64,000 nt of DNA. It comes from Patescibacteria group bacterium. GTDB taxonomy: Bacteria; Patescibacteriota; Microgenomatia; 0-14-0-10-38-17. The stretch is taken from positions 399,437 through 463,436 of the forward strand of contig JBMNNJ010000001.1 in NCBI GenBank assembly GCA_050953885.1. Direction: 5' to 3'. Under the pieces are notes generated by a model. It saw only the letters and a list, made by a program, of their open reading frames with translations, did not search any database and was not told the origin of the DNA. Of the stretch, positions 1,560-47,776 are shown one piece after another. The position numbers and the translations under genes are program-made. The stretch's first letter is position 1; each line of letters opens with the position of its first letter.

Positions 1560-1890
1560 AGCTGTTAAATTGTTGGGGATGGGATAGTTCGTAATGCGTA
1601 ATAAAGAAACGCAAAGTGCAAATATCAAAAATCAAAACCAAGCTCAAAAACCAAAACTATAAATTAAAACTCAAAACGCAAATGTCAAATGTCAAAACTA
1701 CATGTTAAATCTCAAATATTTTTAGAGCTTAATCCGCCAGCTGGCGGATTGAGTTGTAGTTTTGAGTTTTGCGATTTAACATTTGAGTTTATTTATTATT
1801 TTTGAACTTTTATTTAGGCTTTGATTTTTGATATTTGCGATTTGAGTTTTTTCATACTTAATACTTGATACAAAATACCAGATACTAACT
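1560..1890. repeat. Long AT-rich intergenic palindromic element (family E) with a central family A box. It is the representative of a family found in most intergenic spacers.
   Basis: Left arm ...aaaactcaaaacgcaaatgtcaaatgtcaaaactacatg... Centre aatCCGCCAGCTGGCGGatt (1734-1747). Right arm gagttgtagttttgagttttgcgatttaacatttgagttt... is the imperfect reverse complement. Related elements are at 3700-4040, 8790-9030, 11700-11950, 13000-13130, 15300-15480, 26250-26520, 28830-29070, 39130-39620, 41495-41630 and 43740-44110. Confidence 0.7.
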
Positions 1891-1894
1891 CTTA

Positions 1895-3655: not shown

Positions 3656-4043
3656 ATTTAATTTACCTAAAAAAACGATGCTATAATTTAGCGCGCACCT
3701 ATCACCTCTAATAAAAACAACCCTGCTTCATTATGTTTTTTGATTTTGATTGGTAATGGGTAATAAAAAAGCGCAAAATGCAAAGAGCCTCGCCGCCAGC
3801 GGGGCCCCGCTATGGCGGGATAAAACCTGAATCAAAATTCAAAATTCAAAAGTTAAAAGTTAAAATTACAAGTTAAAATTCAAAAGTAGAACAAAAAACT
3901 TTTAACTTGTAATTTTGATCCGCCAGCTGGCGGATTGACTTTTGCCTTTTGAATTATTTTTGCGCCAGTCATTCGCTTATTCGTGTCTATTCGTTTCCTA
4001 TTTGTTTTAATTCGTGTCTTTTAGCAACTTAATAATGATTTTC

Positions 4044-8872: not shown

Positions 8873-8964
8873 TGTAGGGGCGGACCCATGTGTCCGCCCA
8901 TCAAAGGGTCCGTGCTGCTTATTTAAAACCATTAATCGGGTCGACACATGGGTCGACCCCTACA
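8873..8964. repeat. Family C ~92-nt double-hairpin element. A second copy lies at 24641-24734 in inverted orientation.
   Basis: tgtaggggcggacccatgtgtccgccc...gggtcgacacatgggtcgacccctaca. The other copy is its near-exact reverse complement. Both are intergenic. Confidence 0.8.
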
Positions 8965-9033
8965 AATATTCCTTTGCGTTTTGCGATTTAACATTTGAGT
9001 TTATTTAATGAAACAATGCGGCAATGAAACAAT

Positions 9034-24432: not shown

Positions 24433-24936
24433 AAAAAAACACCTCTTGCCGAGGTGTCTTTTCTCAAACTAAAACAGTTCTTTTCCTCGGCAGGAAATTA
24501 AGCTTTCTTAAAAAAGCGCCTGCTGTCTTTGGCTTTTTTATTTTTACCACGAACGGGGATTAATGTCAACTACCAGATACATGAGACGAGAACAAAGCTC
24601 GTAATACCGTAATAGGTAATAAAATAGGTAATAAAAATTGGTAGGGGCCGAACCCATGTGTCGACCCGATTAATGGTTTTAAACGGACGAATTACAGGCC
24701 CTTTCACGGGCGGACACATGGGTTCGCCCCTACAATTCGTGTCTATTCGTTTCCCATTCGCATTAATTCGCGTATCCCAACATATAGTAATGTGTTTTTT
24801 TAATTTCTCAATTTCAGCGAGCGAAGCGAGCGAATTTCTTAATTTCTTTTTTTAATAACGTAACCGTTTAATAATTTAGAAATATTTTCCCTGTTGACAA
24901 TCTAATAAATATTTTGATATACTTTTAACTATAAAA

Positions 24937-26244: not shown

Positions 26245-26521
26245 TAAACAGAGATTGTTATATTGCTAAACTGTTAAATTGCTAAAGAAATTCAAAAATT
26301 AAAATTTAAAAGTCAAAAGTACAAGTCAAAATTCAAAAGTAGAGCGAAAACTTTTAACTTTTAACTTGTAATTTTGAATTTTGACTTTTGCATTTTGAAT
26401 TATTTTTACACCGACCATCGGCTCATTCGTGTCTATTAACAACATAGTAACTTCAGCCCTTCTCGCCCCAAAAATTCCCAAAATGTATTATAATAAGGTA
26501 TCTATTAATTTAACCTGAAAA

Positions 26522-30434: not shown

Positions 30435-31715
30435 ATGTTCAATCCTTCCGCTTTAAAGATTATCCCCAAGGGAAAAACAGAAATTATTCTTCCTCGTTAC
30501 CAAGATTATTGTTTTGCCAATCTCCCCCTTACGATTCTTAAGCTGTTTGGCTGTCATCACTCCAACCCCACCCTCCCTCAAGACGCTTTTCCCTATCCTC
30601 AAAAATACCAACGCCTTATTCTTATTCTCCTTGATGCTTTTGGCTTCCAAAATTTTAAGAACCAGCAAAGTCAATTTCGCTTCCTTACCAACAAAGCAAT
30701 CGTTTCTCCTCTTACTTCCGTTTTCCCCAGCACCACTGCCGCCGCCCTTTCCACTCTTCATACCGGGGTTTTACCTAAAAAGCACGGTCTTATTGAATGG
30801 CATCTTTATCTACCGGAAGTTGGCCAAATAATCACCACTCTCCCTTTTTCTTTTTCGTCATCTTGCCAAGACGAGCTTTTAAAACAAGGTTTTTCGCCAA
30901 AGCTACTTTTAAACCAAAAAACTATTTTTCAAGCTCTTGCCCAACAAAAGGGCGTCCGTTCTTTTACTTTCGTCAAAAGAGATTATGCCCGTAGCGCCTA
31001 TAGCAAAATTTCTCAAAAAGGCGCCAAAACCATTGCTTATCAAGGCCTAACCGATCTTTTTGTCAATCTTAAAAATGTTTTCCAACATCAGGCAAAAAAA
31101 TCCTCACCCGCTTATTTTTATGCTTATATTGACTCTCTTGATTCTCTTGGCCACCAGTATGGCCCCCAAAGCGAGGCTTATCAAGAAGAAGTAAAAAGAA
31201 TCGCTTGGTCCTTAAAAAACATCTTTTTATCAAACCTCTCCCCTAAAGAAAAAGAAAAAACACTTCTTATCATCACCGCCGATCATGGCCAAATAGATAT
31301 TGACCCGCAAAAAAACTTTTCTCTCAACCACTTCTTAAAACTTAAAAAGAATCTAAAAACCAATCCCATGGGCGAAAAAATTCTTGCCACCGGTGGACCG
31401 AGAGATCTTTTTCTTCATCTTGAAAAAGAAAAAATCCCCGCCACTCTTTTTTACCTTCAAAAAAAACTAGGCAACACCGCTTTTGTTTATTCTTTAAAAA
31501 CTGCCGAAAAAATGGGTTTTTTCGGACCGGGAAAAACTTCCAAAAGATTTCGCCAACGCGCCGGCGACATTCTCATTCTCCCCCGCGGCAAAATCACTTT
31601 CTGGCTGGAAAAAGAAAAAAGAAAAAAGCCACCTAAATTAGGCCATCATGGAGGCTTATCTATCGAAGAAATGCTTATTCCCCTAATCGCCGCCAATCTT
31701 TCACATCTTTCTTAA
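30435..31715 (+). CDS. Alkaline-phosphatase-superfamily enzyme of the type I phosphodiesterase/nucleotide pyrophosphatase (NPP)-like group
   Basis: LILLDAFGFQNF resembles the NPP metal-site DGFR motif. FPSTTAAALSTLHTGVLPKKHG resembles FPSxTxPxHxxxxTGxxPxxHG. Also ITADHGQ and GHHGG. Confidence 0.55.
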   Translation: MFNPSALKIIPKGKTEIILPRYQDYCFANLPLTILKLFGCHHSNPTLPQDAFPYPQKYQRLILILLDAFGFQNFKNQQSQFRFLTNKAIVSPLTSVFPSTTAAALSTLHTGVLPKKHGLIEWHLYLPEVGQIITTLPFSFSSSCQDELLKQGFSPKLLLNQKTIFQALAQQKGVRSFTFVKRDYARSAYSKISQKGAKTIAYQGLTDLFVNLKNVFQHQAKKSSPAYFYAYIDSLDSLGHQYGPQSEAYQEEVKRIAWSLKNIFLSNLSPKEKEKTLLIITADHGQIDIDPQKNFSLNHFLKLKKNLKTNPMGEKILATGGPRDLFLHLEKEKIPATLFYLQKKLGNTAFVYSLKTAEKMGFFGPGKTSKRFRQRAGDILILPRGKITFWLEKEKRKKPPKLGHHGGLSIEEMLIPLIAANLSHLS

Positions 31716-33476
31716 AACCTCAAGACCTAAAATACCCAAACCTTCTTCCAAAATCTTTGCCGTTAAGGCGGTTAGGCCCAAACGAAGACTTTCTTTTTCC
31801 CTCTCTTCTTGTAAAATCTGGTGTTGGTTGTAAAAATGATTATAGTCTTGAGCTAATTGATACAAAAAGTCGGCGACAAGATTGGGAGAAAATTTTTGCG
31901 CCGCCTCGGAAATTACTTCATCCCAATGGCAAGAAAGTCTAACAATTGCTAACTCTTCTTGATTAAGCTGAATTTTCGGTAAATTCTCAAAACTTCTCCT
32001 CCTGCTTTTCTCAAGCACCGAAAAACAGCGCGCCGCTGTATACTGAAGATAAGGGCCAGAGTTTCCTTCTAAGGTAAGCATCTTTTCCCAGTTAAAAATA
32101 ATATCCGTCCGGGGGTTTTGCTTTAAATCATTATATTTAACCGCTCCTATCCCTACTGCCCGGGCCACTTTTTCTTGCTCTTTTGGGGAAAGCTTCTTGG
32201 CCACCCCCGCTTCTGCTGTTAATTTTCGCGCTTTCTTAATTGCTTCTTCCAAAACCGCTTCTAAATGAATTGTTTTGCCGCTCCGGGTGGAAAATTTGCC
32301 TTCTAAACCTAAAATCATCCCGTGCGCCACATGAACTAAGGCTTCCGGCGAGCAATAGCCCAAAAGCGAAGCAACCGAAAAAAGCTGTTGAAAATAGAAA
32401 GCTTGGTCCGCTCCCACCTCATAAATAATTAAATCGGGCCGCCAGCGCTCCTGCCGATATTTAATTGTCGCTAAATCGCGTAAAAGATAGGTGGTTGCCC
32501 CGTCTGATTTAACTAACATTGCCGGTGTTTCCTCGCCGGGCAGGAAAATCACTTTCGCTCCTCGGCTCTGGCAAAGTAATCCCTTTTCTTGGGCATCGGC
32601 AATTACCGCCGCCATTTTATCCTGATAAAAACTTTCCCCTAAAAAAACATCAAAAGAAATACCAAGCATTTTATAAACCCGGCTAAATTCTTTCATTGAT
32701 AAATCGACAATCTTTTGCCAAATTTCTCTTGCCTCCCGATCGCCCTCCTCAAGCCTCTTAAACCATTCTCTTGCCTCCCCTTTTAAACGAGGGTTTTTTT
32801 CTGCCTCCCGATGAAACTCAACATATAGATTTTCTAAATCTTCAATGGTTAGGTCTTCCAGCCCTTTATTATCGTCATTCTGACGAAAATCAGAATCCAG
32901 CTTTGGTTTGCCTTCCCTGCGACATTTTTTAGATAAACCTCGCCGTTTAACCTGATAAAGCAAAACCCCAAATTGCGTTCCCCAATCACCCAAATGATTA
33001 TCGCCAATCACTTTATAACCCAAAAAAGCATAAAGATTATAAAGCGCCTGGCCGATAATGGTGGAGCGCAAATGCCCCACGCCAAAGGGCTTGGCAATAT
33101 TAGGCGAAGAATAGTCAATAATGACCGTTTTCCCCTCCCCTGTTTTAGAAACCAATCTCTCCCTTGAGGAAATTATTTCCTCGCTTGCTTTCAAAAGAAA
33201 GTTTGGCTTTAAATAAAAATTGATAAATCCCGGGGGGGCCACTTTAATTTCCTCAACAAACGATAAAGAAGAAAGTAAAGAAATTTCTTCTTTAATTTTT
33301 TGAGCAACATGAAGTGGCGGTTGATTTAATTTTTTCCCCGCCAAAAGCGCCGCATTAGTAGCATAATCACCAAAAGAGGACAGCTTAGGCGTTTCTAAAG
33401 AAAAATTAACCGCGGGAACACCCAAAGAAGCCAGCGAATCTTTAATTGCTTTAGAGATTTCTTTCTTAAAATTCAT
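31701..33476 (-). CDS. argS: Arginyl-tRNA synthetase
   Basis: 591 aa with class I motifs PNIAKPFGVGHLRSTIIG (HIGH-like) and a KMSK-like GKFSTRSGK. The overall layout is ArgRS-like. Confidence 0.9.
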   Translation of the reverse strand: MNFKKEISKAIKDSLASLGVPAVNFSLETPKLSSFGDYATNAALLAGKKLNQPPLHVAQKIKEEISLLSSLSFVEEIKVAPPGFINFYLKPNFLLKASEEIISSRERLVSKTGEGKTVIIDYSSPNIAKPFGVGHLRSTIIGQALYNLYAFLGYKVIGDNHLGDWGTQFGVLLYQVKRRGLSKKCRREGKPKLDSDFRQNDDNKGLEDLTIEDLENLYVEFHREAEKNPRLKGEAREWFKRLEEGDREAREIWQKIVDLSMKEFSRVYKMLGISFDVFLGESFYQDKMAAVIADAQEKGLLCQSRGAKVIFLPGEETPAMLVKSDGATTYLLRDLATIKYRQERWRPDLIIYEVGADQAFYFQQLFSVASLLGYCSPEALVHVAHGMILGLEGKFSTRSGKTIHLEAVLEEAIKKARKLTAEAGVAKKLSPKEQEKVARAVGIGAVKYNDLKQNPRTDIIFNWEKMLTLEGNSGPYLQYTAARCFSVLEKSRRRSFENLPKIQLNQEELAIVRLSCHWDEVISEAAQKFSPNLVADFLYQLAQDYNHFYNQHQILQEEREKESLRLGLTALTAKILEEGLGILGLEVLRKM

Positions 33477-33499: not shown

Positions 33500-34450
33500 C
33501 TATTCTTCTATCCACCACCGCTGACCGTTACTTACCACCACCACATCGCCATCTTGATCGGTCCGCTTTATCAACAGGCCCTCTTTCTCAAGCTGTTCTC
33601 TTAAAATCTGATGAGGATGACCCCACGGATTTTTCCCCACCGAAATAACCGCCAAAAGGGGTTGGGCTTTTTCCAAAAATTCGTCGGTAAAAGCATATTT
33701 TGAGCCATGGTGGGCCACTTTTAAAACCTCAACCGGAGAAAAAGAAACCGTGGCTAAAATCTCCGGTTGAATCCGGCTGTCAGCATCGCCGGTCAAAAGT
33801 AAGTCAAAATTACCAAAAGAAACCCGCGCCACTAAAGAAAAATCATTCCAAGAAGCCTCTGGCGCTAAAACCTGATCCACTAAAATCTCTTTTGATTGAT
33901 AAAGATCGGCCCCAGAAACCTTATCGGCTGATAGTTTCTTAAAAAACCACTCTTTTTGAGGCCAAAGGAATAAAAAATTTACCCCATTAAAGGAAATTTT
34001 ATCCCCCTGCCAAGGGTTTATCAATGTTATCTTGCCATTGCTAACCAAATCCGATAACCCGTTAAATAATTTATTTTCTTTTGCCAAGGGACTTTTAACA
34101 AAATAATTCACTTGATATCTTTCTATAACCGAGGCGAGGCCGCCAAAATGATCTTTTTCCGGATGGGTTAAAACGACTATCTCCAAACAACGATCCCAAA
34201 AAGGCATGTGCCTACCTAAGCAGGTTAAAACCGCCTCATCTTCCCCACCGTCTACCAAAATCTGGTTATCTCCTCGTGTTAATAAAACCGCGTCTCCTTG
34301 GCCTACATCGCAAAAGACCACCCGTAAATTATCATCCGGCTGTTGCCAAAGAAAAAGGCAAACTACTCCAAGGGCAATTAATAGTAAGGTGGGTAATAAT
34401 TTTCGCGACGCTATCTCCATATTTTTTGTGGCTGGAGCATGATTCGTCAT
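33500..34450 (-). CDS. Metallo-beta-lactamase-fold domain protein corresponding to the ComEC C-terminal domain, encoded as a separate ORF with its own TM anchor
   Basis: VVFCDVGQGDAVLL is the start of the ComEC-type MBL domain. VLTHPEKDHFGG and HHGS are also present. A 131-bp repeat-containing spacer separates it from the ComEC membrane-domain ORF. Confidence 0.7.
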   Translation of the reverse strand: MTNHAPATKNMEIASRKLLPTLLLIALGVVCLFLWQQPDDNLRVVFCDVGQGDAVLLTRGDNQILVDGGEDEAVLTCLGRHMPFWDRCLEIVVLTHPEKDHFGGLASVIERYQVNYFVKSPLAKENKLFNGLSDLVSNGKITLINPWQGDKISFNGVNFLFLWPQKEWFFKKLSADKVSGADLYQSKEILVDQVLAPEASWNDFSLVARVSFGNFDLLLTGDADSRIQPEILATVSFSPVEVLKVAHHGSKYAFTDEFLEKAQPLLAVISVGKNPWGHPHQILREQLEKEGLLIKRTDQDGDVVVVSNGQRWWIEE

Positions 34451-34581
34451 CTTGACAAATTCGCCAGCTGGCGGACAGGATTGTTACTTTGGCAGTAAGA
34501 AAGATCCTGAATCAAGTTCAGGATGACGCTAAATTAAATTTAAAATAACATCATAAATTATATCTCAGCCACTTTTTATAC

Positions 34582-35802
34582 CTATCTTTTTAAAATCATC
34601 GCCATCAAAATAGCACCATAAATTATCAATAACCACCAAGGCAAAGAAAAGGAAAAGAAAGGTAAAACTTGGCTCCAAAAGCTAACGCCCTTAACGAAAA
34701 ATTGAGCAGGCAAAAAAACAAGCCAGGAAAAAGGTGGCGCCAAAAATGGCAAGAAAAAACCAACTATTATCAAAATCGTCCCCAAAAGCATTATCGGCGA
34801 GATAAGCCAAAGGAGGGTAACGTTAGCTAAAAAAGAAAACGGCGAAAACTGGCCAAAAGAAATTAGTAAAAGAGGAACGGTAAAAATCTGGGCCGCCAAG
34901 GTGGTTAACAGGTCATCTTTGAAAGAGCCAAGAGTTGGCAACCAAGAAAAAAAGCTTTCCAAGCGATTTTTCAAAAAAATAATCCCCGCGCTTGAGGCAA
35001 AAGAAAGCTGAAAGCCAAGATCAAAAACAACCTCCGGAGTAAATAAGGCCAGTAAAACTGCCGCCAAAACCAGACCACGCCAACTTTCTTTTTGGCGGCC
35101 AAAGAAAGAGCCGCCCCAAGAAAAGCTGGTCATTATTGCCGCCCGAAGCAAAGGAGGCTCTGCTCCGCAAAGGAAAACATAAAACCAAATCAGCGGCAGG
35201 GTTAAAAGAAGAGCTTTGCGGCGATTAAAAAACTGGTTTAAAAGAGGGAAAGCAAAAGAGGCCACCAAAATCACATTCGCCCCCGAAGCAACCACCACAT
35301 GAAGCGTCCCGGTTCTCACCAAATCCTGATAAAAATCGTCAGGGAGAGCACTTTTAACCCCCAAAAGCACCCCTAACACCAGTGAGGCCGCCGGCTCGGG
35401 TAAAAGCCGCTGGAAGAAAAGAATTATTTTTTGACGAAGGGAAAAAATATTCTCAACCCACCCTTTGGTGGCCGCAGGAGCGAGCAAATTAACTTGAGGG
35501 TAGTTTAGCCAGAGCTCTTTTTGCCCCTTTTTTGTCAGCACTTGCTCAACTTTGCCAACAACTTCCACCCGATCTCCATAATGAAGAAACGGTTCTCTTG
35601 AGGTTTTAACCCTAATTCCTTGAAGGCGAAAACTTTGGCTTTGACCAAAAAGCTGCGGCTCTTCTTTTAAAACATCCTCAATTTTTATTTCTTCTCCTAT
35701 TAAGTTTTCTTTTTTTAAAGAAGCGGCCGTTTTCTGCCAACGACAAAACCAAAGGCTAACCAACGCCAAAAGAAAAAAAAGATAAGAAAAAAACCTCCTC
35801 AC
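34582..35802 (-). CDS. comEC: ComEC/Rec2 competence membrane-channel domain protein (N-terminal part of a split comEC)
   Basis: Polytopic membrane protein with the competence-domain motif GTLHVVVASGANVIL. Lies directly downstream of comEA. Confidence 0.75.
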   Translation of the reverse strand: MRRFFSYLFFLLALVSLWFCRWQKTAASLKKENLIGEEIKIEDVLKEEPQLFGQSQSFRLQGIRVKTSREPFLHYGDRVEVVGKVEQVLTKKGQKELWLNYPQVNLLAPAATKGWVENIFSLRQKIILFFQRLLPEPAASLVLGVLLGVKSALPDDFYQDLVRTGTLHVVVASGANVILVASFAFPLLNQFFNRRKALLLTLPLIWFYVFLCGAEPPLLRAAIMTSFSWGGSFFGRQKESWRGLVLAAVLLALFTPEVVFDLGFQLSFASSAGIIFLKNRLESFFSWLPTLGSFKDDLLTTLAAQIFTVPLLLISFGQFSPFSFLANVTLLWLISPIMLLGTILIIVGFFLPFLAPPFSWLVFLPAQFFVKGVSFWSQVLPFFSFSLPWWLLIIYGAILMAMILKR

Positions 35803-35804
35803 TT

Positions 35805-36443
35805 TTAATTGACACTAATCAAGTCTTTTATTTTTTCAAAAGTTTTCTCCCCTATTCCGGAGACATTTTTAATTTCTTCAATCGAGGAAAAATTGCCCTT
35901 CTCTTCTCGGTATTCCACAATCGCCGAAGCATAAGCAAAACCAATTTCGGGCAAAGTCTCAAGCTCTCCTACCGAAGCGGTATTAATATTAATCTTGCCA
36001 GCCACGGTTTCTCCTCCCCCTACTCCCGCTTTGCCGCCAGAAGAAAGCTGTTCCCCAATATAGGGAATATAAATTTTCTCGCCATCCTGAAGTAGTCGCG
36101 CCCGATTTAATTCCTTTTCTAAAAACGATCTTTGTGCCCAATTGGTAACCCCGCCAGCGGCGATCAATAAGTCGTTAACCCGCGAAGAGGCGGGCAGATA
36201 ATAAACACCCGGCTTGGCTACCGCTCCGCCAATATCTACCACCAGCTCCTCTGCTTTTTGGTCTTTCTCTGCCTTAATCACCGTTAAAGAAGCGCCTTTT
36301 TCTTCCTCAAGCCAACCAAACTGCTGGGCAAAACCAAAAAGAATTAAGGTCACGCCAACGGAGGCCAAAAACCACTCAAAAAGATTTTCTTTTAAAACCT
36401 GAAAAAAATTAACCGATTTTTCGGGGGCAGGAGGATTCTCCAT
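35805..36443 (-). CDS. comEA: Competence protein ComEA (helix-hairpin-helix DNA-binding)
   Basis: N-terminal TM segment and C-terminal tandem HhH (ININTASVGELETLPEIGFAYASAIVEYREEKGNFSSIEEIKNVSGIGEKTFEKI). Confidence 0.8.
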   Translation of the reverse strand: MENPPAPEKSVNFFQVLKENLFEWFLASVGVTLILFGFAQQFGWLEEEKGASLTVIKAEKDQKAEELVVDIGGAVAKPGVYYLPASSRVNDLLIAAGGVTNWAQRSFLEKELNRARLLQDGEKIYIPYIGEQLSSGGKAGVGGGETVAGKININTASVGELETLPEIGFAYASAIVEYREEKGNFSSIEEIKNVSGIGEKTFEKIKDLISVN

Positions 36444-36447
36444 TTTC

Positions 36448-39126
36448 TTAAATCACAAAATTAATTAGCCTTCCCGGCAAGAAAACTACTTTTTTAATCT
36501 TTTGACCTGATAAATATTTCTTAATCTTTTCTTCTCTCTTTACGGCCAAAATAACCGCATCTTTAGCATTCGCTTTATCGCTTTCTATATCAATTTTTCC
36601 CCTTGTCTTCCCGTTAATTTGCACAATAATTGTCGTCATTTTTTCTTCTAACTTCCTCGGGTCATAAGTTGGCCACTCTTGCTGATGAACCGAAAAAGGA
36701 TTCCCAAGAACATTGGTCCAAAGCTCCTCGGCTAAATAAGGAGCAAAGGGGGCAATAAGCTTAACCATTGTCTCCATTTCCTTTTTAGTCAAAACCAGTT
36801 CCTCTTCTTCTATTTTATTTAAAGCCTCCATCAACGCCGCCACCGCGGTATTATATTTAAAATGTTTTATATCCTCGCTTACTTTTTTCGTGAGGCGATG
36901 AAACAATGGTCTTAACTTTTTTCCTTCCTCCTTTGCCACCTTCATGTCCTCCCGAATTTTCTTCTCAAAACGGCGCAAAAACCTCACCGTTCCCTGAAAA
37001 GCGTTCTCGTTCCAAATTGTCGTTCCCTCATACGGCCCCATAAACATCAAATAAAGCCTTAAGGCGTCAACACCATAATTGCCCCAAACTTCGTCCGGGT
37101 TAATCACGTTACCACGCGACTTGCTCATCTTTTGACCATCGGCCCCCAAAACCATCCCGTGAGAAACTCGCCGATAATACGGCTCGGGATAGCGGCGAGG
37201 GAGAAACCCCAAATCATATAAAAACTGATAAATAAAACGTGAATAAAGAAGATGAAGGGTATTATGCTCATCGCCGCCGAAATAAATATCCACCGGCAGC
37301 CAATAGCTAAGAATATCTTTATTATCCATAAAAACATTTTGAGATTTTTGCTTATCGGTAAGTTTATCCGCAAAACAATAAGCAAGGTAGTACCAATCAG
37401 AACCCGCCCAATTAGGCATGGTGTCCGTTTCCCGTCGGGCAGCCTGCCCACAAACCGGGCAGGAAATTTCCCGCCAACCCGGCACACTGGCCAGAGGAGA
37501 TTCCCCGGTACCAGTAGGCTGGTATTTTTCCACCTTTGGCAACTCCACCGGCAAATCTTCTTCTGGCACCGGAAACCACCCCGCTAGTTCCCTTAAGTTA
37601 AAATTTTGAAACTTTTGACTTTTGTCCGCCAGTTGGCGGATTGAATTTTGACTTTTTTTACTGTCCCACCATGTTATCCCCTTCTTCGCGCAACTTGGAC
37701 AATAAATCATCGGAATCGGCTCCCCCCAATAATGCTGACGGGAGAAAATCCAATCCCGAAGATGATAGCTCACTGCTTTCTCGCCAATTTTCTTTTTCTC
37801 CAACCAAGCGATGGTTTCTTTAATTGCCTCTTTGGGACTAAGGCCATTAAGAAAACCAGAGTTGATCATTTTCCCCTTCTCAACTTGTGTATAAGCCCCT
37901 TTATCAAAATCCCAGTTTTCTCTTGGTTCAACCACAGGAATGATGGGTAAACCAAATTTTTTAGCAAATTGCCAATCTCTTTCGTCGTGAGCCGGCACCC
38001 CCATAATTGCCCCACTACCATAACTTTCCAAAACAAAATCAGAAACCCAAACAGGGATTTTCTTCCCCGTGGCCGGATTAACCGCGTAAAGGCCGGTAAA
38101 AACACCTGTTTTTTCCTTGGCCAAATCGGTTCTCTCCAAATCCGATTTTTTTCTTGCTCCCTCAACGTACTCGTCAATCTTTTGCAATTCTGAATTTTTT
38201 CCGCCAGCTGGCGGATTGAGTTTTGAATTTAGGAGCGCAGCGACAAGCGGATGTTCCGGCGCCAGAACAATAAAAGTCGCTCCCCAAAGAGTATCCGGCC
38301 TTGTCGTAAACACCTCAATTTCTTTAATGTCATCCTGAACTACCCCCTTCCCGTCATCCTGAACTTGATTCAGGATCGATCCTGAAATAAATTCAGAATG
38401 ACTAGCTATTGAGAATTTAATCTTTGCCCCTTCCGACTTGCCGATCCAATTAATCTGCGCCGCCTTAACTTTTTCGATAAAATCAACTTTGTTAAGACCT
38501 TCCAGAAGACGCTCGGCATAATCGGTAATTTTGACAATCCATTGCTCTAATTTTCTTTGGCTCACCGTGGCGCCACAACGCTCGCAACGGCCATTAACTA
38601 CCTCCTCATTAGCCAAACCAATTTTACAAGAAGGGCACCAGTTCACCGGCATGGCTTTTTTATAAGCCAAACCATTCTCGAAAAGCTTAATAAAAATCCA
38701 CTGGGTCCAGCGGTAATAAGCCGGGTCGGTAGTATTAATTTCCCGGCTCCAGTCAAAAGAAAAAGCCATTTTCTTCATCTGCCGCCGAAAATTAGCGGTA
38801 TTACGTTCGGTTACTTTTTGGGGATGAATACCGGTTTTAATGGCAAAGTTTTCCGTCGGCAAGCCAAAGGCGTCCCAGCCCATAGGAAATAAGACATTTT
38901 TTCCTTCCATTCGCCGCTGACGGGCGTAAACATCAGCGCCGGTAAAAGTAAAAGCATGACCAATATGAAGCCCCTCGCCCGAAGGATAAGGAAATTCCAC
39001 TAAAATGTACTCTTTTCCCCGTTTTTTATCCAAATCAATTGCCCGATATAAACCCGCTTTTTCCCACCGCTTCTGCCATTTTTCCTCGTCAATGGTTGTC
39101 TTTTCCCCTTTTGACTTCATTGTCAA
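36448..39126 (-). CDS. leuS: Leucyl-tRNA synthetase carrying three in-frame insertions of dispersed repeat elements
   Basis: 892 aa. PYPSGEGLHIGHAF (HIGH) and KMSKSRGN (KMSKS). The peptides NSIRQLADKSQKFQNFNL, NPPAGGKNSELQ and ILNQVQDDGKGVVQDD are translations of family A and family B repeat copies at 37626-37639, 38201-38214 and 38329-38402. Confidence 0.9.
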   Translation of the reverse strand: MTMKSKGEKTTIDEEKWQKRWEKAGLYRAIDLDKKRGKEYILVEFPYPSGEGLHIGHAFTFTGADVYARQRRMEGKNVLFPMGWDAFGLPTENFAIKTGIHPQKVTERNTANFRRQMKKMAFSFDWSREINTTDPAYYRWTQWIFIKLFENGLAYKKAMPVNWCPSCKIGLANEEVVNGRCERCGATVSQRKLEQWIVKITDYAERLLEGLNKVDFIEKVKAAQINWIGKSEGAKIKFSIASHSEFISGSILNQVQDDGKGVVQDDIKEIEVFTTRPDTLWGATFIVLAPEHPLVAALLNSKLNPPAGGKNSELQKIDEYVEGARKKSDLERTDLAKEKTGVFTGLYAVNPATGKKIPVWVSDFVLESYGSGAIMGVPAHDERDWQFAKKFGLPIIPVVEPRENWDFDKGAYTQVEKGKMINSGFLNGLSPKEAIKETIAWLEKKKIGEKAVSYHLRDWIFSRQHYWGEPIPMIYCPSCAKKGITWWDSKKSQNSIRQLADKSQKFQNFNLRELAGWFPVPEEDLPVELPKVEKYQPTGTGESPLASVPGWREISCPVCGQAARRETDTMPNWAGSDWYYLAYCFADKLTDKQKSQNVFMDNKDILSYWLPVDIYFGGDEHNTLHLLYSRFIYQFLYDLGFLPRRYPEPYYRRVSHGMVLGADGQKMSKSRGNVINPDEVWGNYGVDALRLYLMFMGPYEGTTIWNENAFQGTVRFLRRFEKKIREDMKVAKEEGKKLRPLFHRLTKKVSEDIKHFKYNTAVAALMEALNKIEEEELVLTKKEMETMVKLIAPFAPYLAEELWTNVLGNPFSVHQQEWPTYDPRKLEEKMTTIIVQINGKTRGKIDIESDKANAKDAVILAVKREEKIKKYLSGQKIKKVVFLPGRLINFVI
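38201..38214. repeat. Family A dispersed palindrome CCGCCAGCTGGCGG (contains a PvuII site). This copy is in-frame inside leuS.
   Basis: Other copies or variants: 1734-1747, 3920-3933, 15429-15440, 34462-34474, 37626-37639, 39319-39332, 39464-39476, 39533-39546, 43833-43846 and 45076-45087. Usually flanked by aatc / gatt. Confidence 0.85.
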
Positions 39127-39623
39127 AATATTCTATCATAATATCTAAGAGAAGAGGTAGATTACAAGAGCGCGCTCGTAAAAATATATTGATGGAGTTA
39201 AAAATGTCTGCATTTTAAATCTCAAAACGCAAATAGCAAATCTACATGGTAAATGTTAAAACTTTTTAAAGCTTAAAGTTGTTTTTTTTAGATTTGAGTT
39301 TTGAGTTGTAGTTTTGATCCGTCAACTGGCGGATTGAGTTGTCGGTTTGATACGCCTGGCGGGCAGAATCATCCCTGTAGCTGTCATCCTGACAAAAGTC
39401 AGAATCTAACTGATTCTGAATCAAGTTCAGAATGACGCTAATCATGGCCGTCATTCTGACAAATCCGCCAGCTGGCGAACAAAAGTTAAAAGTTTTTTCG
39501 TCTTACTTTTGAATTTTGACTTGCAATTTTGATCCGCCAGCTGGCGGATTGACTTTTGACTTTTGCATTATTCTTATGTCAATCATTCATTCGTGTCTAT
39601 TCGTTTTCCATTCGTGTTAATTC

Positions 39624-41491: not shown

Positions 41492-41632
41492 GAAAAGACA
41501 CGAAGGGGAAAAGAACAAACACGAATCTGGAGGGACGCATCACGATGCGCCCTCATATCGGTATGAATCCGCGCCGGTTATTCGTTCATTCGTGTCTATT
41601 CGCTTTTAATTCGCGTTAATTCGCGTTTTACC

Positions 41633-43735: not shown

Positions 43736-43867
43736 TAAAAACAAAACACAATATAAGGATAAAAAGAAACATGCTAAGCGCTAAGGTCAAATCTCAAATC
43801 TCAAATATCAAAACTCAAAACTACAACTCAATCCGCCGGCTGGCGGACAAGAATAACGATAATCGCA

Positions 43868-43965
43868 CCTGTCATCCTGACGAAAGTCAGGATCTAATTG
43901 ATTCTGAATCAAGTTCAGAATGACACTAATCGTGGTCGTCATTCCTGAATTAAATTCAGGATGAC
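43868..43965. repeat. Family B hairpin repeats (GTCATCCTGAAYTTGATTCAGGATGAC and the TTCTGAATCAAGTTCAGAATGAC variant). This is a cluster of two or three units.
   Basis: Other copies: 34504-34527 (between the comEC halves), 38329-38402 (inside leuS), 39376-39460 and 45038-45170. Confidence 0.8.
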
Positions 43966-44115
43966 GCCATTCGTTCATTCGCGTTCATTCGCTTTTAATT
44001 CGCACATCCCAGCAATATAGCAATGTGTTTCCTAATTTCTTAATTTCAGCCCCGCCAGGGCGGGGCGAATTTCTTAATTTCTTTTTTAGCAATTCAACAA
44101 TATCGCAATTTAACC

Positions 44116-45126
44116 ATGAAACAACATTACCTTTTCCTTGCTTTTCTGGTTTTTCTTTCCCTCATCTTTCCTCATCCCACCCTTGCCTCAACCACCGTTC
44201 TCTGGCAGAAAATAAGCGAGGAAGGACCAAAAGAAACAATCGGATCTTCAAGCCAGGAAGTGGCTCTTTCTGCGCTGGTAGGCCAAGGGATTTTTACTAT
44301 TGAAGGCTACTCTTCGCCCGGGGCGACTATTTTTCTCACCAGCTCTCAAGGCAACTTAAGCCCACAAACCGTTAAGGCAGATAAAAACGGCTATTTTATT
44401 TTTAAAAATGTTCTCCTGCCGGTAAACCCCGGCGAGCTTTGGTTTCAAGCCCGCGACCAAAAGGGAAATTTTACTACTCCCTTGGCTATTGCCCAGCCGC
44501 CAAGGGAAGTAGAAAAAATTAAGGATGTTTTCCTTCCTCCCACCTTTTCCCAAACCAAAGGGCAAATAATTACCGGTGAAAATGCTTTTTTATGGGGATA
44601 TAGCCTGCCCGACGCTACCGCCGAAATTTATTTTTTCAAAACCCCCACAAAGAAATGGTGGCAAGCTTTTATCGGCCGACCCGCCCTTGCTTTTGAACCT
44701 CTTAAAATAGAAATTAAAACCGACCAAAACGGCTATTTCGAAGTAAATCTTCCTAATACTGCTCGGGGGCACTACCAAATTTTTGCCTCAAGTCAAAAAG
44801 AAGAAAATCCTTCTCCTAAAAGTAATACCCTCTCATTTCGGATTTTGGGAAAATGCGAAACCTTTTGGTTTTTTCTTAAGGCTTTATTCACACGATTAGC
44901 CTTGTTCCTAAAAAAGATTGTCGCTGATTTACTTTTTTGGATTACGATCGAGCTGATTATCTTAATTTATTTAATCTGGAAAATAAGACAAAAAAAAGAA
45001 TTGCCGCTAACCGTGTCACCACAACAAAACAAGGCCATCATTCCTGAATTAAATTCAGGACAGGCTCTGACGAATCCGCCAGCTGGCAGACAGGATCTAA
45101 CTGATTCTGAATCAAGTTCAGAATGA
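44116..45126 (+). CDS. Secreted protein with a C-terminal TM helix. Its last ~40 residues are encoded by family A and family B repeat elements.
   Basis: Signal peptide MKQHYLFLAFLVFLSLIFPHPTLAS. C-terminal TM helix (LLFWITIELIILIYLIW). The tail ...NPPAGRQDLTDSESSSE is translated from repeat copies at 45038-45125. Confidence 0.5.
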   Translation: MKQHYLFLAFLVFLSLIFPHPTLASTTVLWQKISEEGPKETIGSSSQEVALSALVGQGIFTIEGYSSPGATIFLTSSQGNLSPQTVKADKNGYFIFKNVLLPVNPGELWFQARDQKGNFTTPLAIAQPPREVEKIKDVFLPPTFSQTKGQIITGENAFLWGYSLPDATAEIYFFKTPTKKWWQAFIGRPALAFEPLKIEIKTDQNGYFEVNLPNTARGHYQIFASSQKEENPSPKSNTLSFRILGKCETFWFFLKALFTRLALFLKKIVADLLFWITIELIILIYLIWKIRQKKELPLTVSPQQNKAIIPELNSGQALTNPPAGRQDLTDSESSSE

Positions 45127-45240
45127 CGCCCGAGTTATTTTAACAAAATTCAGAATGACGATTGCGCTATCCCTAAATTTATCAGAAATAACGCCCACCA
45201 CAGAATGGCAACACCGAGGGTTACCACCAAAAGAGAAAGC

Positions 45241-46720: not shown

Positions 46721-47203
46721 ATGCCCCAAACCCTGCTCTCCTCTTTCCGGCTTTATCTTAAAGCCCAAGGGAAAAAGGAAAACACCATCAGGAATTATCT
46801 TCAGGACATTGATCACTTTTTCTCTTGGCTTTCCTCCCAAATTAAAGATTCTTCACTGCAAGCGCTTCTTAACGACCCTAACAAAATAGCTCAAAACATA
46901 ACGGTTAAAAATTTAACTGTCTATCAGCGATTTTTGGAAAAAAATGAAGTTTCCCCTACCACTATCAACCGCCGCCTTTCCTCTCTTCGCCAATTGACAA
47001 AGTTTTTCCTTTCTCAAGGTTGGTTAAAAGAAGACCCAATAAAAAAATTAGCCAATATCTCCATTGAAAAAGAAACCGATAAAACTTCGCAAATTCTGGA
47101 AAAGTTTGCCAAAGCGCTTGAAGAAGAAGGGAAAAGCAAAACCACCATTAGAAATTATCTTTCTGACGTGAAGGGGTTTTTGGAATGGCACGAAAAAGAT
47201 TAA
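46721..47203 (+). CDS. Small protein made of tandem phage-integrase-N-terminal-like (SAM-like/core-binding) modules, with no catalytic domain
   Basis: Three ~35-aa modules of the pattern FxxYLxxxGxSxxTIxxYLxxxxxFxxW: SFRLYLKAQGKKENTIRNYLQDIDHFFSWL, VYQRFLEKNEVSPTTINRRLSSLRQLTKFF and LEKFAKALEEEGKSKTTIRNYLSDVKGFLEW. Confidence 0.5.
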   Translation: MPQTLLSSFRLYLKAQGKKENTIRNYLQDIDHFFSWLSSQIKDSSLQALLNDPNKIAQNITVKNLTVYQRFLEKNEVSPTTINRRLSSLRQLTKFFLSQGWLKEDPIKKLANISIEKETDKTSQILEKFAKALEEEGKSKTTIRNYLSDVKGFLEWHEKD

Positions 47204-47215
47204 AAAGTTAAAAAA

Positions 47216-47776
47216 ATGACCAACAGAATTATTTTGCCTCACGGCAATTATCGTCAGCTTAAATCGTTCCAAACTACAACAATTATTTACGATTTCACGA
47301 TGGCTTTTTGTAATCAATACCGGTCCCTCCTGACTTACAAGAACTACGAGCAAATGATCGGTGGTGCCAGATCGGGTAAGCAAAATATCGCCGAAGGCAG
47401 TCAGGTTTCTGGCACTTCTAAAAAAACAGAGATAAAACTTACCAGCGTTGCCCGTGGGTCACTTGAAGAATTGCTTCAAGATTGCCTTGATTTTCTTCGC
47501 CAAAACAATCTTGTTTTGTGGGATAAAAACGATCCCCGGGCTATTACCATCCGCAAGATTGCTTATAAGCCTGATCGGTCTTATGAGTCCTACAAGTCCT
47601 ATCTTAAAGACCCGGAAAGCGCCGTCAACTGCCTAATTTGCTTAATTCATCAGGCTAATTTTCTTCTTGACCGTCAGCTTGAAGCTTTAGAAAAAGATTT
47701 TTTAGAAAATGGCGGCTTCACTGAAAGGCTTTATCGGGAAAGAAGCGAAGCAAGAAAAAAGCAAAAATATGACTAA
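47216..47776 (+). CDS. Four-helix-bundle protein (23S rRNA intervening-sequence protein / Avd-like family), long form
   Basis: Family motifs NIAEGS...S and ARGSLEEL in the expected spacing. The stop overlaps the start of the giant gene (ATGACTAA). Confidence 0.55.
   Translation: MTNRIILPHGNYRQLKSFQTTTIIYDFTMAFCNQYRSLLTYKNYEQMIGGARSGKQNIAEGSQVSGTSKKTEIKLTSVARGSLEELLQDCLDFLRQNNLVLWDKNDPRAITIRKIAYKPDRSYESYKSYLKDPESAVNCLICLIHQANFLLDRQLEALEKDFLENGGFTERLYRERSEARKKQKYD

What the first reader, a model, noticed from the sequence alone, without database searches (positions are those of the whole stretch)
36448..39126. Essential leuS carries three dispersed repeat elements inserted in-frame
Family A palindromes at 37626-37639 and 38201-38214 and a family B hairpin cluster at 38329-38402 lie inside the LeuRS ORF. 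They are translated as NSIRQLADKSQKFQNFNL, NPPAGGKNSELQ and ILNQVQDDGKGVVQDD, with no frame disruption. The same elements are mostly intergenic elsewhere. This shows either that the repeats are mobile and inserted recently, or that small insertions are tolerated in LeuRS insertion domains.
Basis: seen in the sequence. Interest (0 to 1): 0.6.

Follow-up and report, generated by a model that had tools for sequence, protein, structure and literature searches.

The report
Tiny mobile palindromes inside leucyl-tRNA synthetase
An essential enzyme gene of an ultra-small (CPR/Patescibacteria) bacterium carries three short hairpin-forming repeat elements in its reading frame; at least two of them arrived recently, and the same 16-base palindrome sits in-frame in many other housekeeping genes across this bacterial radiation, much as palindromic elements do in Rickettsia.

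Summary
leuS (36448-39126, minus strand) is intact, with HIGH, KMSKS and the editing motif. It contains two copies of the palindrome TCCGCCAG(C/T)TGGCGGA inside heptamer arrays (A1, A2) and a 75-nt hairpin composite (B). All three are in frame.

Orthologues lack them. Among six relatives about 95% identical, every internal indel lies at one of these three sites. A1 is a 33-nt gain unique to the window lineage, because its 100%-bootstrap sister has the empty site. A2 is another 33-nt gain.

B carries three of the defining features of CGTC-tagged REPs, the superfamily that includes Rickettsia RPE-4 and RPE-6. B is 74/75 nt identical in a lineage whose leuS is otherwise 70% identical, which implies recent exchange.

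The inserts coincide with the lowest-confidence loops of an AlphaFold model. They map to the CP1 editing domain and the ZN2 knuckle.

ArgRS in the same window carries a B-type insert. In a sample of public genomes, 59 of 126 copies of the A palindrome lie inside long ORFs, in all three frames. Named hosts include ValRS, RpoB, RecG, LigA, UvrD and PBP2.

This is an RPE-like phenomenon in CPR bacteria, involving an unusually small element. How the element moves is unknown.

The parts
36448..39126 (-). leuS (leucyl-tRNA synthetase). The listed ORF has a TTG start at 39126. The annotated ATG at 39120 gives 890 aa.
   Evidence: ORF and translation. Pfam domains. 100% match to a protein named leucine--tRNA ligase. 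Catalytic and editing motifs intact.
37624..37656 (-). A1: a 33-nt gained unit (GTCCGCCAGTTGGCGGATTGAATTTTGACTTTT on the + strand), with the 16-nt palindrome at 37625-37640. It is translated as KSQNSIRQLAD (aa 491-501).
   Evidence: Absent from P0002, P0003, L290 and L291, which keep only the heptamer array. The sister taxon L291 lacks it. It is flanked by an 11-nt direct repeat AAAAGTCAAAA.
37595..37660 (-). Heptamer ((T)TTTGAN-type) array that hosts A1. It is translated as ...KSQKFQNFNL...
   Evidence: Repeat family D1. The array is present in the empty-site alleles. It is stop-free in 2 of 3 frames in the mRNA orientation and in none in the opposite orientation.
38197..38229 (-). A2: a 33-nt unit with the 16-nt palindrome TCCGCCAGCTGGCGGA at 38200-38215. 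It is translated as KLNPPAGGKNS (aa 302-312).
   Evidence: Absent from L290 (an exact 33-nt difference flanked by AAATTCA). P0004 has an uninterrupted (AAGTTCA)4 array at this position. P0003 has a further 27 nt inserted at the exact centre of the palindrome. pLDDT<50 at aa 304-310.
38328..38403 (-). B: a 75-nt composite. It consists of an inverted dimer of CGTC-type hairpin units (38352-38377 and 38378-38403) plus an extra 24-nt half-unit (38328-38351). It is translated as SHSEFISGSILNQVQDDGKGVVQDD (aa 242-266).
   Evidence: Inverted repeat I6. Only 1 of 6 frames is stop-free, and that is the frame used. Predicted mRNA hairpin -32 kcal/mol, z=-5.4. Absent from most orthologues. pLDDT<50 at aa 245-265. 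Unit number varies in P0003 and L292.
38260..38430 (-). Tract around B that is 95-98% identical to leuS of Shapirobacteria CG09_land_38_17 (P0004), against about 70% identity elsewhere in the gene.
   Evidence: Sliding identity. Alignment. Same-codon fraction 42/46 in the tract against 254/531 elsewhere, Fisher p=2e-9. Longest identical-codon run is 33 codons, aa 240-274.
32873..32897 (-). B1-type CGTC hairpin (CGTCATTCTGACGAAAATCAGAATC) inside argS (31701-33476). It is translated within ...GKPKLDSDFRQNDDNKG...
   Evidence: Pattern scan. Translation. ArgRS Pfam domains. A 19-aa segment is absent from the syntenic ArgRS of L004.
45060..45127 (+). A+B composite that forms the C-terminal tail and stop of ORF 44116-45126 (...PELNSGQALTNPPAGRQDLTDSESSSE*).
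39304..39565 (.). Intergenic cluster just upstream of leuS. It holds three A cores (39317-39334, 39463-39480, 39532-39549) and a B1+B2 dimer (39383-39436). The copy at 39532-39565 matches the A1 unit at 30 of 33 positions by manual count.
34445..34528 (.). Intergenic composite: an A core nested in the loop of a B1-type hairpin, plus a B2 unit identical to the leuS unit.
   Evidence: L004 6801-6826 matches it 26/26.
43831..43965 (.). Intergenic cluster: an A core plus a B1+B2 dimer plus a further B2 unit.
1732..1749 (.). Intergenic A core at the centre of a long heptamer-array palindrome.
3918..3935 (.). Intergenic A core within a heptamer array.

Best explanation
The three segments are copies of two kinds of small, non-autonomous, hairpin-forming repeats that populate this Shapirobacteria-like (CPR) genome.

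Family B is a REP resembling the CGTC-tagged superfamily: a CGTC/TGTC tag, an 8-bp stem that starts with AT, and a 4-5 nt loop.

Family A is a 16-nt perfect palindrome, TCCGCCAGCTGGCGGA, that lands in arrays of T-rich heptamers (NTTTTGA)n.

The elements spread through the genome, mostly between genes. Copies that land in a gene survive only if three conditions hold:
(i) the net length is a multiple of three;
(ii) the orientation and frame are free of stop codons;
(iii) the site is a surface loop that tolerates extra residues.

In leuS those loops are the first beta-hairpin of the CP1 editing domain (B), a second CP1 loop (A2), and the segment after the first CxxC of the ZN2 knuckle (A1). The inserts are then transcribed and translated as disordered or weakly structured peptide, and the enzyme stays functional.

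Shown: repeat identity, polarised gains, hotspot variability, the frame/stop filter and the loop location. Inferred: that the inserts are translated, that the enzyme is functional, and how the elements move.

For the coding copies the most likely route is a one-step templated copy of 'core plus flanking heptamers' from another copy. This could occur by strand switching or short-patch gene conversion through heptamer microhomology. That would explain the 33-nt products flanked by 7-11-nt direct repeats. A sequence-specific hairpin-recognising enzyme is the alternative, and it would explain why the 16-mer is conserved across the CPR. Once resident, an insert can also move between lineages by homologous recombination, as the B tract shared with P0004 indicates.
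For: Repeat status:
- Both motifs are far above chance: 19 against 0.06 and 7 against 0.18.

Absence from orthologues and hotspots.

Indels among relatives:
- The only internal indels among six relatives about 95% identical lie at the three sites.
- A1 is a gain. (win, L291) has 100% bootstrap, and L291, P0003, P0002 and L290 are all empty.
- A2 is a gain. L290 is basal (74% bootstrap) and empty, and the outgroup has an intact (AAGTTCA)4 array.
- Both gains are exactly 33 nt. A third +33 case occurs in ValRS, P0121 against P0123.

Footprint and nesting:
- In 20 of 24 sites with arrays on both sides, the array resumes after core + 3 nt. That is a 19-nt footprint with a TTG duplication.
- Nested insertions occur: 27 nt at the palindrome centre in P0003, and an A core inside B1 loops.

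Frame filter:
- B is stop-free in only 1 of 6 frames, the frame used.
- A units are open only in the A-rich orientation.

Structure:
- The only internal pLDDT<50 segments are 245-265 and 304-310. A1 scores 59-74.
- The inserts align to gaps against T. thermophilus LeuRS 1H3N.

Generality:
- ArgRS carries an insert that is absent in L004.
- 59 of 126 genomic sites of the palindrome lie inside ORFs of at least 150 aa, in all three frames: NPPAGG, SIRQLAD and SASWR.
- Hosts include ValRS/IleRS-like enzymes, RpoB, RecG, LigA, UvrD and PBP2.
- In ValRS, relatives carry the palindrome in different frames or lack it.

CGTC-REP features match the published definition (PMC3733652).

Lateral exchange: the B insert is 74/75 nt identical in a gene that is 70% identical overall, p=2e-9.
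Against: - No transposase, RAYT or other candidate enzyme is encoded in the 64-kb window, so mobility is inferred only from comparisons.
- There is no expression or protein evidence that the inserts are translated.
- The 19-nt footprint and the 33-nt coding gains are not yet reconciled. The arithmetic 33 = 19 + 2x7 is only arithmetic.
- The TTG 'duplication' was partly preselected, because the genome scan pattern included TTGA. The seven array-type copies in the window, which were not selected that way, also have TTGA.
- Polarisation of A2 rests on 74% bootstrap.
- The exact B composite was found only in leuS of this clade. B as a whole therefore behaves now as a resident locus feature, not as a currently transposing unit.
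In viral contigs the 16-mer is not enriched: 55 hits against 91 and 22 for controls.
Confidence: 0.72

Rival explanations
1. The segments are not mobile DNA. They arise locally, by replication slippage in heptamer arrays and hairpin-templated synthesis, and resemble each other only by convergence.
For: All sites are low-complexity arrays prone to slippage. B varies by 24-nt tandem units. Indels are flanked by direct repeats of variable length, 7 and 11 nt, as expected for slippage.
Against: An identical 16-nt GC-rich palindrome cannot be produced by slippage of an AT-rich heptamer array. Yet the same 16-mer appears at 10 window sites and in many CPR classes, with flanks that differ from locus to locus. 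The A1 unit matches the intergenic copy at 39532-39565, flank included, at 30 of 33 positions (manual count).
Confidence: 0.07
2. The inserts are removed before the mature protein is made, as intron-like or intein-like elements or by ribosomal bypass of the hairpins. LeuRS protein would then lack them.
For: The segments form stable hairpins in the mRNA (B -32 kcal/mol, z=-5.4). From general knowledge, CPR bacteria are known for intervening sequences in rRNA genes.
Against: Every insert and every indel between relatives is a multiple of three: 24, 27, 33, 33, 57 and 75 nt. Each insert is stop-free in the frame used, and B is open in only 1 of 6 frames. That constraint is expected only if the segments are translated. 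No intein or group I/II intron features fit in 33-75 nt. No Rfam family matches.
Confidence: 0.05
3. The palindrome is a host-selected signal rather than a selfish element. It could be a DNA-uptake or recombination signal of naturally competent CPR bacteria, or a protein-binding site. Its presence in genes would then be like that of DUS/USS in Neisseria and Haemophilus genes.
For: The 16-mer is conserved exactly across many CPR classes and occurs in all three frames inside genes. comEA, comEC and dprA are in the window. An insert-bearing tract has been exchanged between diverged lineages.
Against: Density is low (about 1 per 6 kb here) and strongly clustered in intergenic repeat nests, unlike uptake sequences. 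The gains are discrete 33-nt insertions rather than point-mutational drift towards a motif. Nesting in other hairpins is typical of mobile repeats. No uptake specificity is known for CPR.
Confidence: 0.08
4. The inserted peptides are adaptive, lineage-specific LeuRS modules selected for a protein function. The DNA repeats elsewhere would be secondary.
For: LeuRS families do carry idiosyncratic insertions. The conserved AKKGITWWD(T/S) segment next to A1 is predicted with high confidence (pLDDT 91).
Against: The inserts are polymorphic among strains about 95% identical. They are predicted to be disordered. The same DNA is read in three different frames in unrelated proteins. That is incompatible with selection on the peptide.
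Confidence: 0.04
5. Assembly or binning artefact: repeat-induced chimeras in metagenome assemblies.
For: All the data are metagenome-assembled, and repeats provoke misassembly.
Against: The identical 890-aa protein is found in at least 7 contigs; the four places shown come from four different samples in JGI and Logan assemblies. Variants recur in independent records: P0003 in L002, L003 and L293; P0004 in 6 contigs.
Confidence: 0.01

Closest known systems
Rickettsia palindromic elements (RPEs; Ogata et al. 2000, as summarised in PMC10969869 and PMC3733652)
   Same: Dispersed palindromic repeats of a small-genome bacterium. They are inserted in frame into unrelated housekeeping genes, including translation and repair enzymes, at positions compatible with the protein fold. 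No transposase of their own is known. RPE-4 and RPE-6 carry the same CGTC tag as family B.
   Different: RPEs are about 100-150 bp, are confined to Rickettsia, and each encodes a conserved peptide. Here the units are 16-75 nt, lie in CPR bacteria, and the A palindrome is read in all three frames. Sequence homology to RPEs was not tested beyond the shared architecture.
CGTC-tagged REP superfamily (Di Nocera et al. 2013, PMC3733652)
   Same: Family B has the CGTC or TGTC tag, an 8-bp stem beginning with AT, 4- or 5-nt loops, inverted dimers, clustering with other repeats and occasional intragenic copies. No dedicated transposase is known.
   Different: The paper reports CGTC REPs in Proteobacteria, Chlorobi, Bacteroidetes, Spirochaetes and Thermotogae, not in CPR. 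The 'CCA' tail is not evident here. The dimers have their tags outward.
Small dispersed repeats (SDRs) of heterocystous cyanobacteria (Elhai et al. 2008, Genome Res 18:1484). The reference is listed. Its content is recalled from memory, because the paper is not held.
   Same: Very small (about 21-27 nt) hairpin-type elements that appear mobile, nest within one another and are associated with tandem heptamer repeats. That is the same relation as the A core has to (NTTTTGA)n arrays.
   Different: Different phylum and different sequence. The A core is even smaller (16 nt, 19-nt footprint) and is conserved exactly across many classes. The comparison rests on my recollection and was not tested here.
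DNA uptake sequences (DUS/USS) of Neisseria and Pasteurellaceae (general knowledge)
   Same: Short conserved motifs. They are found both as inverted pairs between genes and inside coding regions, in whichever frames happen to be tolerated.
   Different: DUS/USS are 9-12 nt, about 1 per kb, specific to a family, and arise by point mutation and recombination. Here discrete insertions are seen, at low density and in nests with other repeats.
Intragenic stem-loop tigRNA arrays of TIGR-Tas systems in CPR (bioRxiv 10.64898/2026.09.09.750476)
   Same: Stem-loop repeats embedded in a coding sequence without breaking the frame, mapping to disordered protein regions, in Patescibacteria.
   Different: Those repeats lie within or next to tas genes and carry box C/D motifs and variable spacers. 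No Nop/Tas gene is present in the window. The elements here are dispersed in housekeeping genes.

Membership tests
CGTC-tagged REP superfamily (for family B) | Unpaired CGTC tag (TGTC or CCTC tolerated) at one end | tested here: met
   By my count from the flanks printed, 10 of 13 B units start with CGTC and 3 with TGTC.
CGTC-tagged REP superfamily (for family B) | Stem of 8-9 bp whose first two pairs are A-T and T-A | tested here: met
   ATCCTGAC/GTCAGGAT (B1) and ATCCTGAA/TTCAGGAT (B2).
CGTC-tagged REP superfamily (for family B) | Loop of 4 nt (family 1) or 5 nt (families 2-4) | tested here: met
   B1 loops are AAAA or GAAA (4 nt). B2 loops are CTTGA/TCAAG (5 nt).
CGTC-tagged REP superfamily (for family B) | Short unpaired tail, mostly CCA | tested here: not met
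   The units end in ...GGATC followed by variable bases (TAACT, GATCC). No CCA tail is seen.
CGTC-tagged REP superfamily (for family B) | High copy number, dispersed, mostly extragenic, often as inverted dimers | tested here: inconclusive
   About 13 units in 64 kb, mostly intergenic, with B1+B2 inverted dimers at 39383-39436, 43871-43924 and 45095-45127. The whole-genome count is not available.
Rickettsia palindromic elements (RPE) | Palindromic repeat inserted in frame in functional housekeeping ORFs | tested here: met
   LeuRS x3, ArgRS x1. Other CPR genes.
Rickettsia palindromic elements (RPE) | About 100-150 bp element that belongs to one of the RPE sequence families and encodes a conserved peptide | tested here: not met
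   The units are 16-75 nt. The A core is translated in three frames. No sequence comparison with RPE consensus sequences was possible.
Rickettsia palindromic elements (RPE) | Insertion at surface positions compatible with the fold | tested here: met
   The inserts coincide with the lowest-pLDDT segments and with gaps against T. thermophilus LeuRS. This is inference from a model, not from an experimental structure.
MITE | 70-300 bp element with terminal inverted repeats related to an IS, plus fixed-length target-site duplications | tested here: not met
   The elements are far smaller. No IS or transposase is present in the window. A 3-nt TTG duplication is suggested for A, but the direct repeats at the coding gains are 7 and 11 nt.
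REP/REPIN mobilised by RAYT (GTAG type) | GTAG tag and an associated IS200/IS605-like tyrosine transposase | tested here: not met
   A and B lack a GTAG tag. No Y1 transposase is present in the window. A separate GTAG-tagged hairpin family does exist at 8874-8965 and 24640-24735. The rest of the genome was not searched.
Cyanobacterial SDR elements (for family A) | Very small hairpin repeat associated with tandem heptamer arrays and nested in other repeats | tested here: met
   The array resumes after core + 3 nt in 20 of 24 sites. Nesting is shown. The definition of the family is recalled from memory.
Cyanobacterial SDR elements (for family A) | Sequence membership in SDR1-8, cyanobacterial host | not tested
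   The paper is not available. The host here is CPR.
DNA uptake sequence | Preferential uptake of motif-bearing DNA, density about 1 per kb, even spread | not testable with these tools
   Density here is about 1 per 6 kb and clustered. Uptake cannot be assayed.
TIGR-Tas intragenic tigRNA | Array with box C/D motifs and variable spacers, linked to a Nop-domain Tas gene | tested here: not met
   No Tas/Nop gene is present in the window. The repeats lie in housekeeping genes.

The most novel reading that the evidence does not exclude
The 16-nt palindrome TCCGCCAGCTGGCGGA, with a 19-nt footprint and a TTG duplication in heptamer arrays, is an autonomous-looking 'minimal' mobile unit shared across the whole CPR/Patescibacteria radiation. 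It would be propagated by a conserved, still unidentified hairpin- or sequence-specific enzyme, or by a competence-linked recombination route. It would systematically remodel the surface loops of essential enzymes such as aaRS, RpoB, LigA, RecG and UvrD. Its recurrent 33-nt in-frame product would make it pre-adapted to colonise coding sequence. That would make it one of the smallest mobile elements known and a main cause of the length hypervariability of CPR proteins.
Probability: 0.25. Interest if true: 0.8.

Novelty: new variant of a known kind. Interest (0 to 1): 0.6.

Why it matters
In-frame colonisation of essential genes by palindromic repeats has been regarded as a curiosity of Rickettsia and a few REP-rich bacteria. 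Finding it in CPR/Patescibacteria has four consequences.

1. Independent reduced-genome lineages tolerate, or cannot purge, such insertions.
2. There is now a concrete, datable system for how new protein loops are born: filled and empty alleles at about 95% identity, in leuS and ValRS.
3. Part of the marked length variation and low-complexity segments of CPR housekeeping proteins is explained. This matters for annotation, for alignment masking in phylogenomics and for structure prediction.
4. The data point to an unidentified mechanism that keeps a 16-mer identical across classes, and to short recombination tracts between diverged lineages.

Practically, the filled and empty sites are strain markers.

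Tried and rejected
- Rfam scans of the window and of 16 loci that carry the palindrome. No family covers the elements; only tRNAs, an rRNA, the L10 leader and Flavo-1 elsewhere were found.
- Pfam scan of about 39 window ORFs for a transposase, RAYT or Tas protein. None was found.
- Viral-contig scans. The 16-mer is not enriched against two composition-matched palindromes (55 against 91 and 22). Viral hits lack heptamer flanks and lie mostly in GC-rich DNA, so a phage vector is not supported.
- Metagenome scan for the B dimer junction, made in the hope of finding it in other genes. It was found only in leuS of this clade. The B composite is therefore locus-resident and not a dispersed composite.
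- NDK and ribosomal protein L1 were checked for further inserts because of split or short Pfam matches. Nothing repeat-derived was found.
- The 27-nt nested insert of P0003 was searched for in all fetched loci. No donor was found.
- I tried to read Elhai et al. 2008. The paper is not held.
- Literature searches for CPR combined with REP, MITE or intragenic repeats found no prior description, within the limits of the library.
- Non-CPR labels among the genome hits were considered as evidence of cross-phylum spread. This was rejected for the one case checked: the 'Gammaproteobacteria' MAG behind L072 has a CPR-type ValRS. Bacteroidota and GC-rich hits lack the arrays and may be chance matches.

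Full report
**1. The observation**

The minus-strand ORF 36448-39126 encodes an 892-aa leucyl-tRNA synthetase. The annotated ATG at 39120 gives 890 aa. Pfam finds the class I catalytic domain, the LeuRS editing domain and the anticodon-binding domain. The HIGH, KMSKS and TTRPDT motifs are intact.

The palindrome CCGCCAGNTGGCGG occurs at 10 window sites, giving 19 strand-matches against 0.06 expected. GTCATCCTGAAC occurs 7 times against 0.18 expected.

The two A copies in leuS belong to a four-member family of 46-nt units: ACTTTTGACTTTTG-TCCGCCAG(C/T)TGGCGGA-TTGAATTTTGACTTTT.

B is an inverted dimer of two hairpin units plus a 24-nt half-unit, at 38328-38403.

Best protein hits place the organism in Candidatus Shapirobacteria (Microgenomates, CPR). 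The identical protein occurs in at least 7 independently assembled contigs; the four places shown come from four different samples.

**2. The segments are insertions, and the sites are hotspots**

In a 20-sequence alignment, basal Microgenomates LeuRS sequences (P0038, P0066, P0078, P0118) have none of the three segments.

Across 120 homologues the three sites vary widely in length:

| Site | Length range | Median |
|---|---|---|
| B | 8-197 aa | 12 |
| A2 | 12-43 aa | 21 |
| A1 | 1-74 aa | 1 |

The extra residues elsewhere are again repeat-like. Examples are ...HSE...ILRxAQDD......NPPAGRAG... and K/S/Q/N-rich heptamer translations. One homologue, P0105, has a whole 197-aa hydrolase domain at site B.

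**3. Location in the enzyme**

Against T. thermophilus LeuRS (1H3N), the inserts fall as follows:
- B falls between the first two strands of the CP1 editing domain, eight residues before TTRPDT.
- A2 falls in the next CP1 loop.
- A1 falls immediately after the first CxxC of the second zinc knuckle.

The domain names for 1H3N come from general knowledge.

An AlphaFold2 model built on 75 sequences has mean pLDDT 86 and pTM 0.82. Its only internal segments with pLDDT<50 are 245-265 (B) and 304-310 (A2). A1 drops to 59-74.

**4. Recent gains**

The leuS genes of P0002 and P0003 are about 95% identical in DNA to the window. The alignment has only three internal indels, one at each repeat site:
- +24 nt, a tandem B half-unit, in P0003.
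- +27 nt at the exact centre of the A2 palindrome in P0003.
- +33 nt for A1 in the window, flanked by an 11-nt direct repeat. The relatives keep only the heptamer array.

A metagenome scan for the B dimer junction found three more relatives: L290, L291 and L292.
- L291 lacks A1.
- L290 lacks A1 and also A2. The A2 difference is again exactly 33 nt, flanked by AAATTCA.
- L292 has an extra B unit.

In a neighbour-joining tree rooted with P0004, the window and L291 are sisters (100% bootstrap), nested among A1-less sequences. L290 is basal (74%). The outgroup has an uninterrupted (AAGTTCA)4 array where A2 sits. A1 is therefore a gain in the window lineage. A2 is an older gain.

**5. Family B**

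By my count from the printed flanks, 10 of 13 B units begin with CGTC and 3 with TGTC. The stems are 8 bp and start with AT. The loops are 4 nt (B1) or 5 nt (B2).

These are three of the defining features of the CGTC-tagged REP superfamily of Di Nocera et al. (PMC3733652). That superfamily includes Rickettsia RPE-4 and RPE-6 and Neisseria dRS3. It has intragenic members and no known transposase. The 'CCA' tail is not seen here.

The B composite is stop-free in only one of six frames, and that is the frame used. It is predicted to form a -32 kcal/mol structure in the mRNA.

**6. An exchanged tract**

P0004 (Shapirobacteria CG09_land_38_17) has a leuS only 70% identical in DNA, yet its B insert is 74/75 identical.

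Sliding identity peaks at 95-98% over about 170 nt (window 38430-38260).

Among aligned identical amino acids, the same codon is used in 42/46 cases at aa 236-288, against 254/531 elsewhere (Fisher p=2e-9). The longest identical-codon run is 33 codons (aa 240-274), against 10 for the next longest.

Within the window clade the insert evolves about as fast as the rest of the gene. Constraint therefore cannot explain the identity. Recent lateral exchange of the insert with short flanks is the best reading, and this is an inference. The flanks alone are only weakly elevated (18/25).

**7. Family A beyond this genome**

Most are labelled with CPR classes: Shapiro-, Gottesman-, Roizman-, Davies-, Curtiss-, Levy-, Moran-, Campbell-, Saccharibacteria and others.

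The flanks are heptamer arrays specific to each locus, such as TTTTTGA, ATTTTGA, GCTTTGA, CATTTGA and TCTTTGA. In 20 of 24 sites with arrays on both sides, the array resumes after core + 3 nt. That is a 19-nt footprint with a TTG duplication.

Of 126 sites, 59 lie inside stop-to-stop ORFs of at least 150 aa. They are read as NPPAGG, SIRQLAD or SASWR. Ten hosts were identified: three ValRS/IleRS-like enzymes, RpoB, RecG x2, LigA x2, UvrD and PBP2.

A MAG labelled Gammaproteobacteria has a CPR-type ValRS, so that label is doubtful. In that ValRS the palindrome is read as SASWR. In an 83%-identical relative it is read as NPPAGG, and it is absent from a 79%-identical relative. The filled-versus-empty difference is again +33 nt.

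The 16-mer is not enriched in viral contigs. No Rfam family covers it.

**8. Other coding copies in the window**

argS (31701-33476) carries a B1 hairpin translated as DSDFRQNDD, within a 19-aa segment that the syntenic ArgRS of L004 lacks.

The C-terminal 27 residues and the stop of ORF 44116-45126 are an A+B composite.

A cores are nested in B1-type loops at three intergenic sites.

**9. Mechanism**

Shown:
- The elements are dispersed repeats.
- Gains are discrete and recent.
- Survivors are in frame, stop-free and located in loops.

Inferred:
- The inserts are translated. The reason is that all lengths are multiples of three and only open frames are used.
- The enzyme remains functional.

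The mobilising activity is unknown. No transposase is encoded in the window.

A frameshift intermediate in an essential gene is not viable. The 33-nt coding gains therefore probably arose in one step. The likely route is copying the core plus flanking heptamers from another copy through heptamer microhomology. The copy at 39532-39565 matches the A1 unit at 30 of 33 positions (manual count). The relation between the 19-nt footprint and the 33-nt gains (33 = 19 + 2x7) remains unexplained.

**10. Comparison with known systems, and verdict**

The phenomenon works like Rickettsia RPEs and like intragenic REPs. B meets three of the CGTC-REP features, but not the CCA tail. A resembles the cyanobacterial small dispersed repeats in heptamer arrays, from memory only. 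It is smaller and is conserved across the CPR.

I found no prior description for CPR in the searchable library.

It is a new variant of a known kind, of moderate to high interest.

Noticed in passing
window 47706-64000 (+), tandem repeats about 48892-56601: A giant ORF of at least 5432 aa runs off the end of the window. It has repeat units of about 1.58 kb and recurring GNVGIGTT-type segments. It is probably a huge repetitive surface protein.
   Followed up: partly
window 8874-8965 and 24640-24735: A separate family of long GTAG-tagged hairpins (GTAGGGGCGGACCCATGTGTC ... GACACATGGGTCGACCCCTAC). GTAG- and CGTC-type REPs therefore coexist in this genome.
   Followed up: no
window 46721-47776; also L004 5-743: An ORF with only the N-terminal SAM-like domain of a phage-type integrase lies next to a 23S-rRNA-IVP-like ORF. 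The same pair is conserved in the Shapirobacteria relative.
   Followed up: no
window 44034-44089 and 24792-24854; ATTCGTGTCTATTCG-like motifs at about 3990-4017, 24735-24752, 26425-26437 and 41586-41602: Further intergenic repeat modules, such as AATTTCTTAATTTC-hairpin-AATTTCTTAATTTC, and 'ATTCGTG' motifs close to gene starts. They may be promoter-associated.
   Followed up: no
P0105 (LeuRS homologue), site B; L118 2587-6120; L048 2957-5596: Whole domains are inserted into CPR housekeeping enzymes. A 197-aa alpha/beta-hydrolase sits at the same LeuRS hairpin as insert B. A histidine-phosphatase domain sits inside an IleRS/ValRS-like enzyme. A PD-(D/E)XK domain sits inside RecG.
   Followed up: partly
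L072 (CAZTEW010000001.1), ORF 1619-3769; P0121, P0122, P0123: A MAG titled 'uncultured Gammaproteobacteria' has a ValRS whose named relatives are almost all CPR. In this ValRS the same palindrome is read as SASWR. In an 83%-identical relative it is read as NPPAGG, and it is absent from a 79%-identical relative (a +33 nt difference).
   Followed up: yes
L002 1336-1362 (P0003 leuS): A 27-nt GC-rich segment (AGTGGCCCCGCGCCAGCACGGTACAGG) is inserted exactly at the centre of the A2 palindrome. It is reproduced in three records. No donor was found.
   Followed up: partly
window 7549-8772, 34582-36443: The competence genes dprA, comEC and comEA are present, with comEA and comEC immediately downstream of leuS. 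This is relevant to the inter-lineage recombination tract seen at insert B.
   Followed up: no
L026 7310, L056 2658, L046 7000: In several CPR genomes the same palindrome sits between or just after tRNA genes, as a terminator or spacer would.
   Followed up: no
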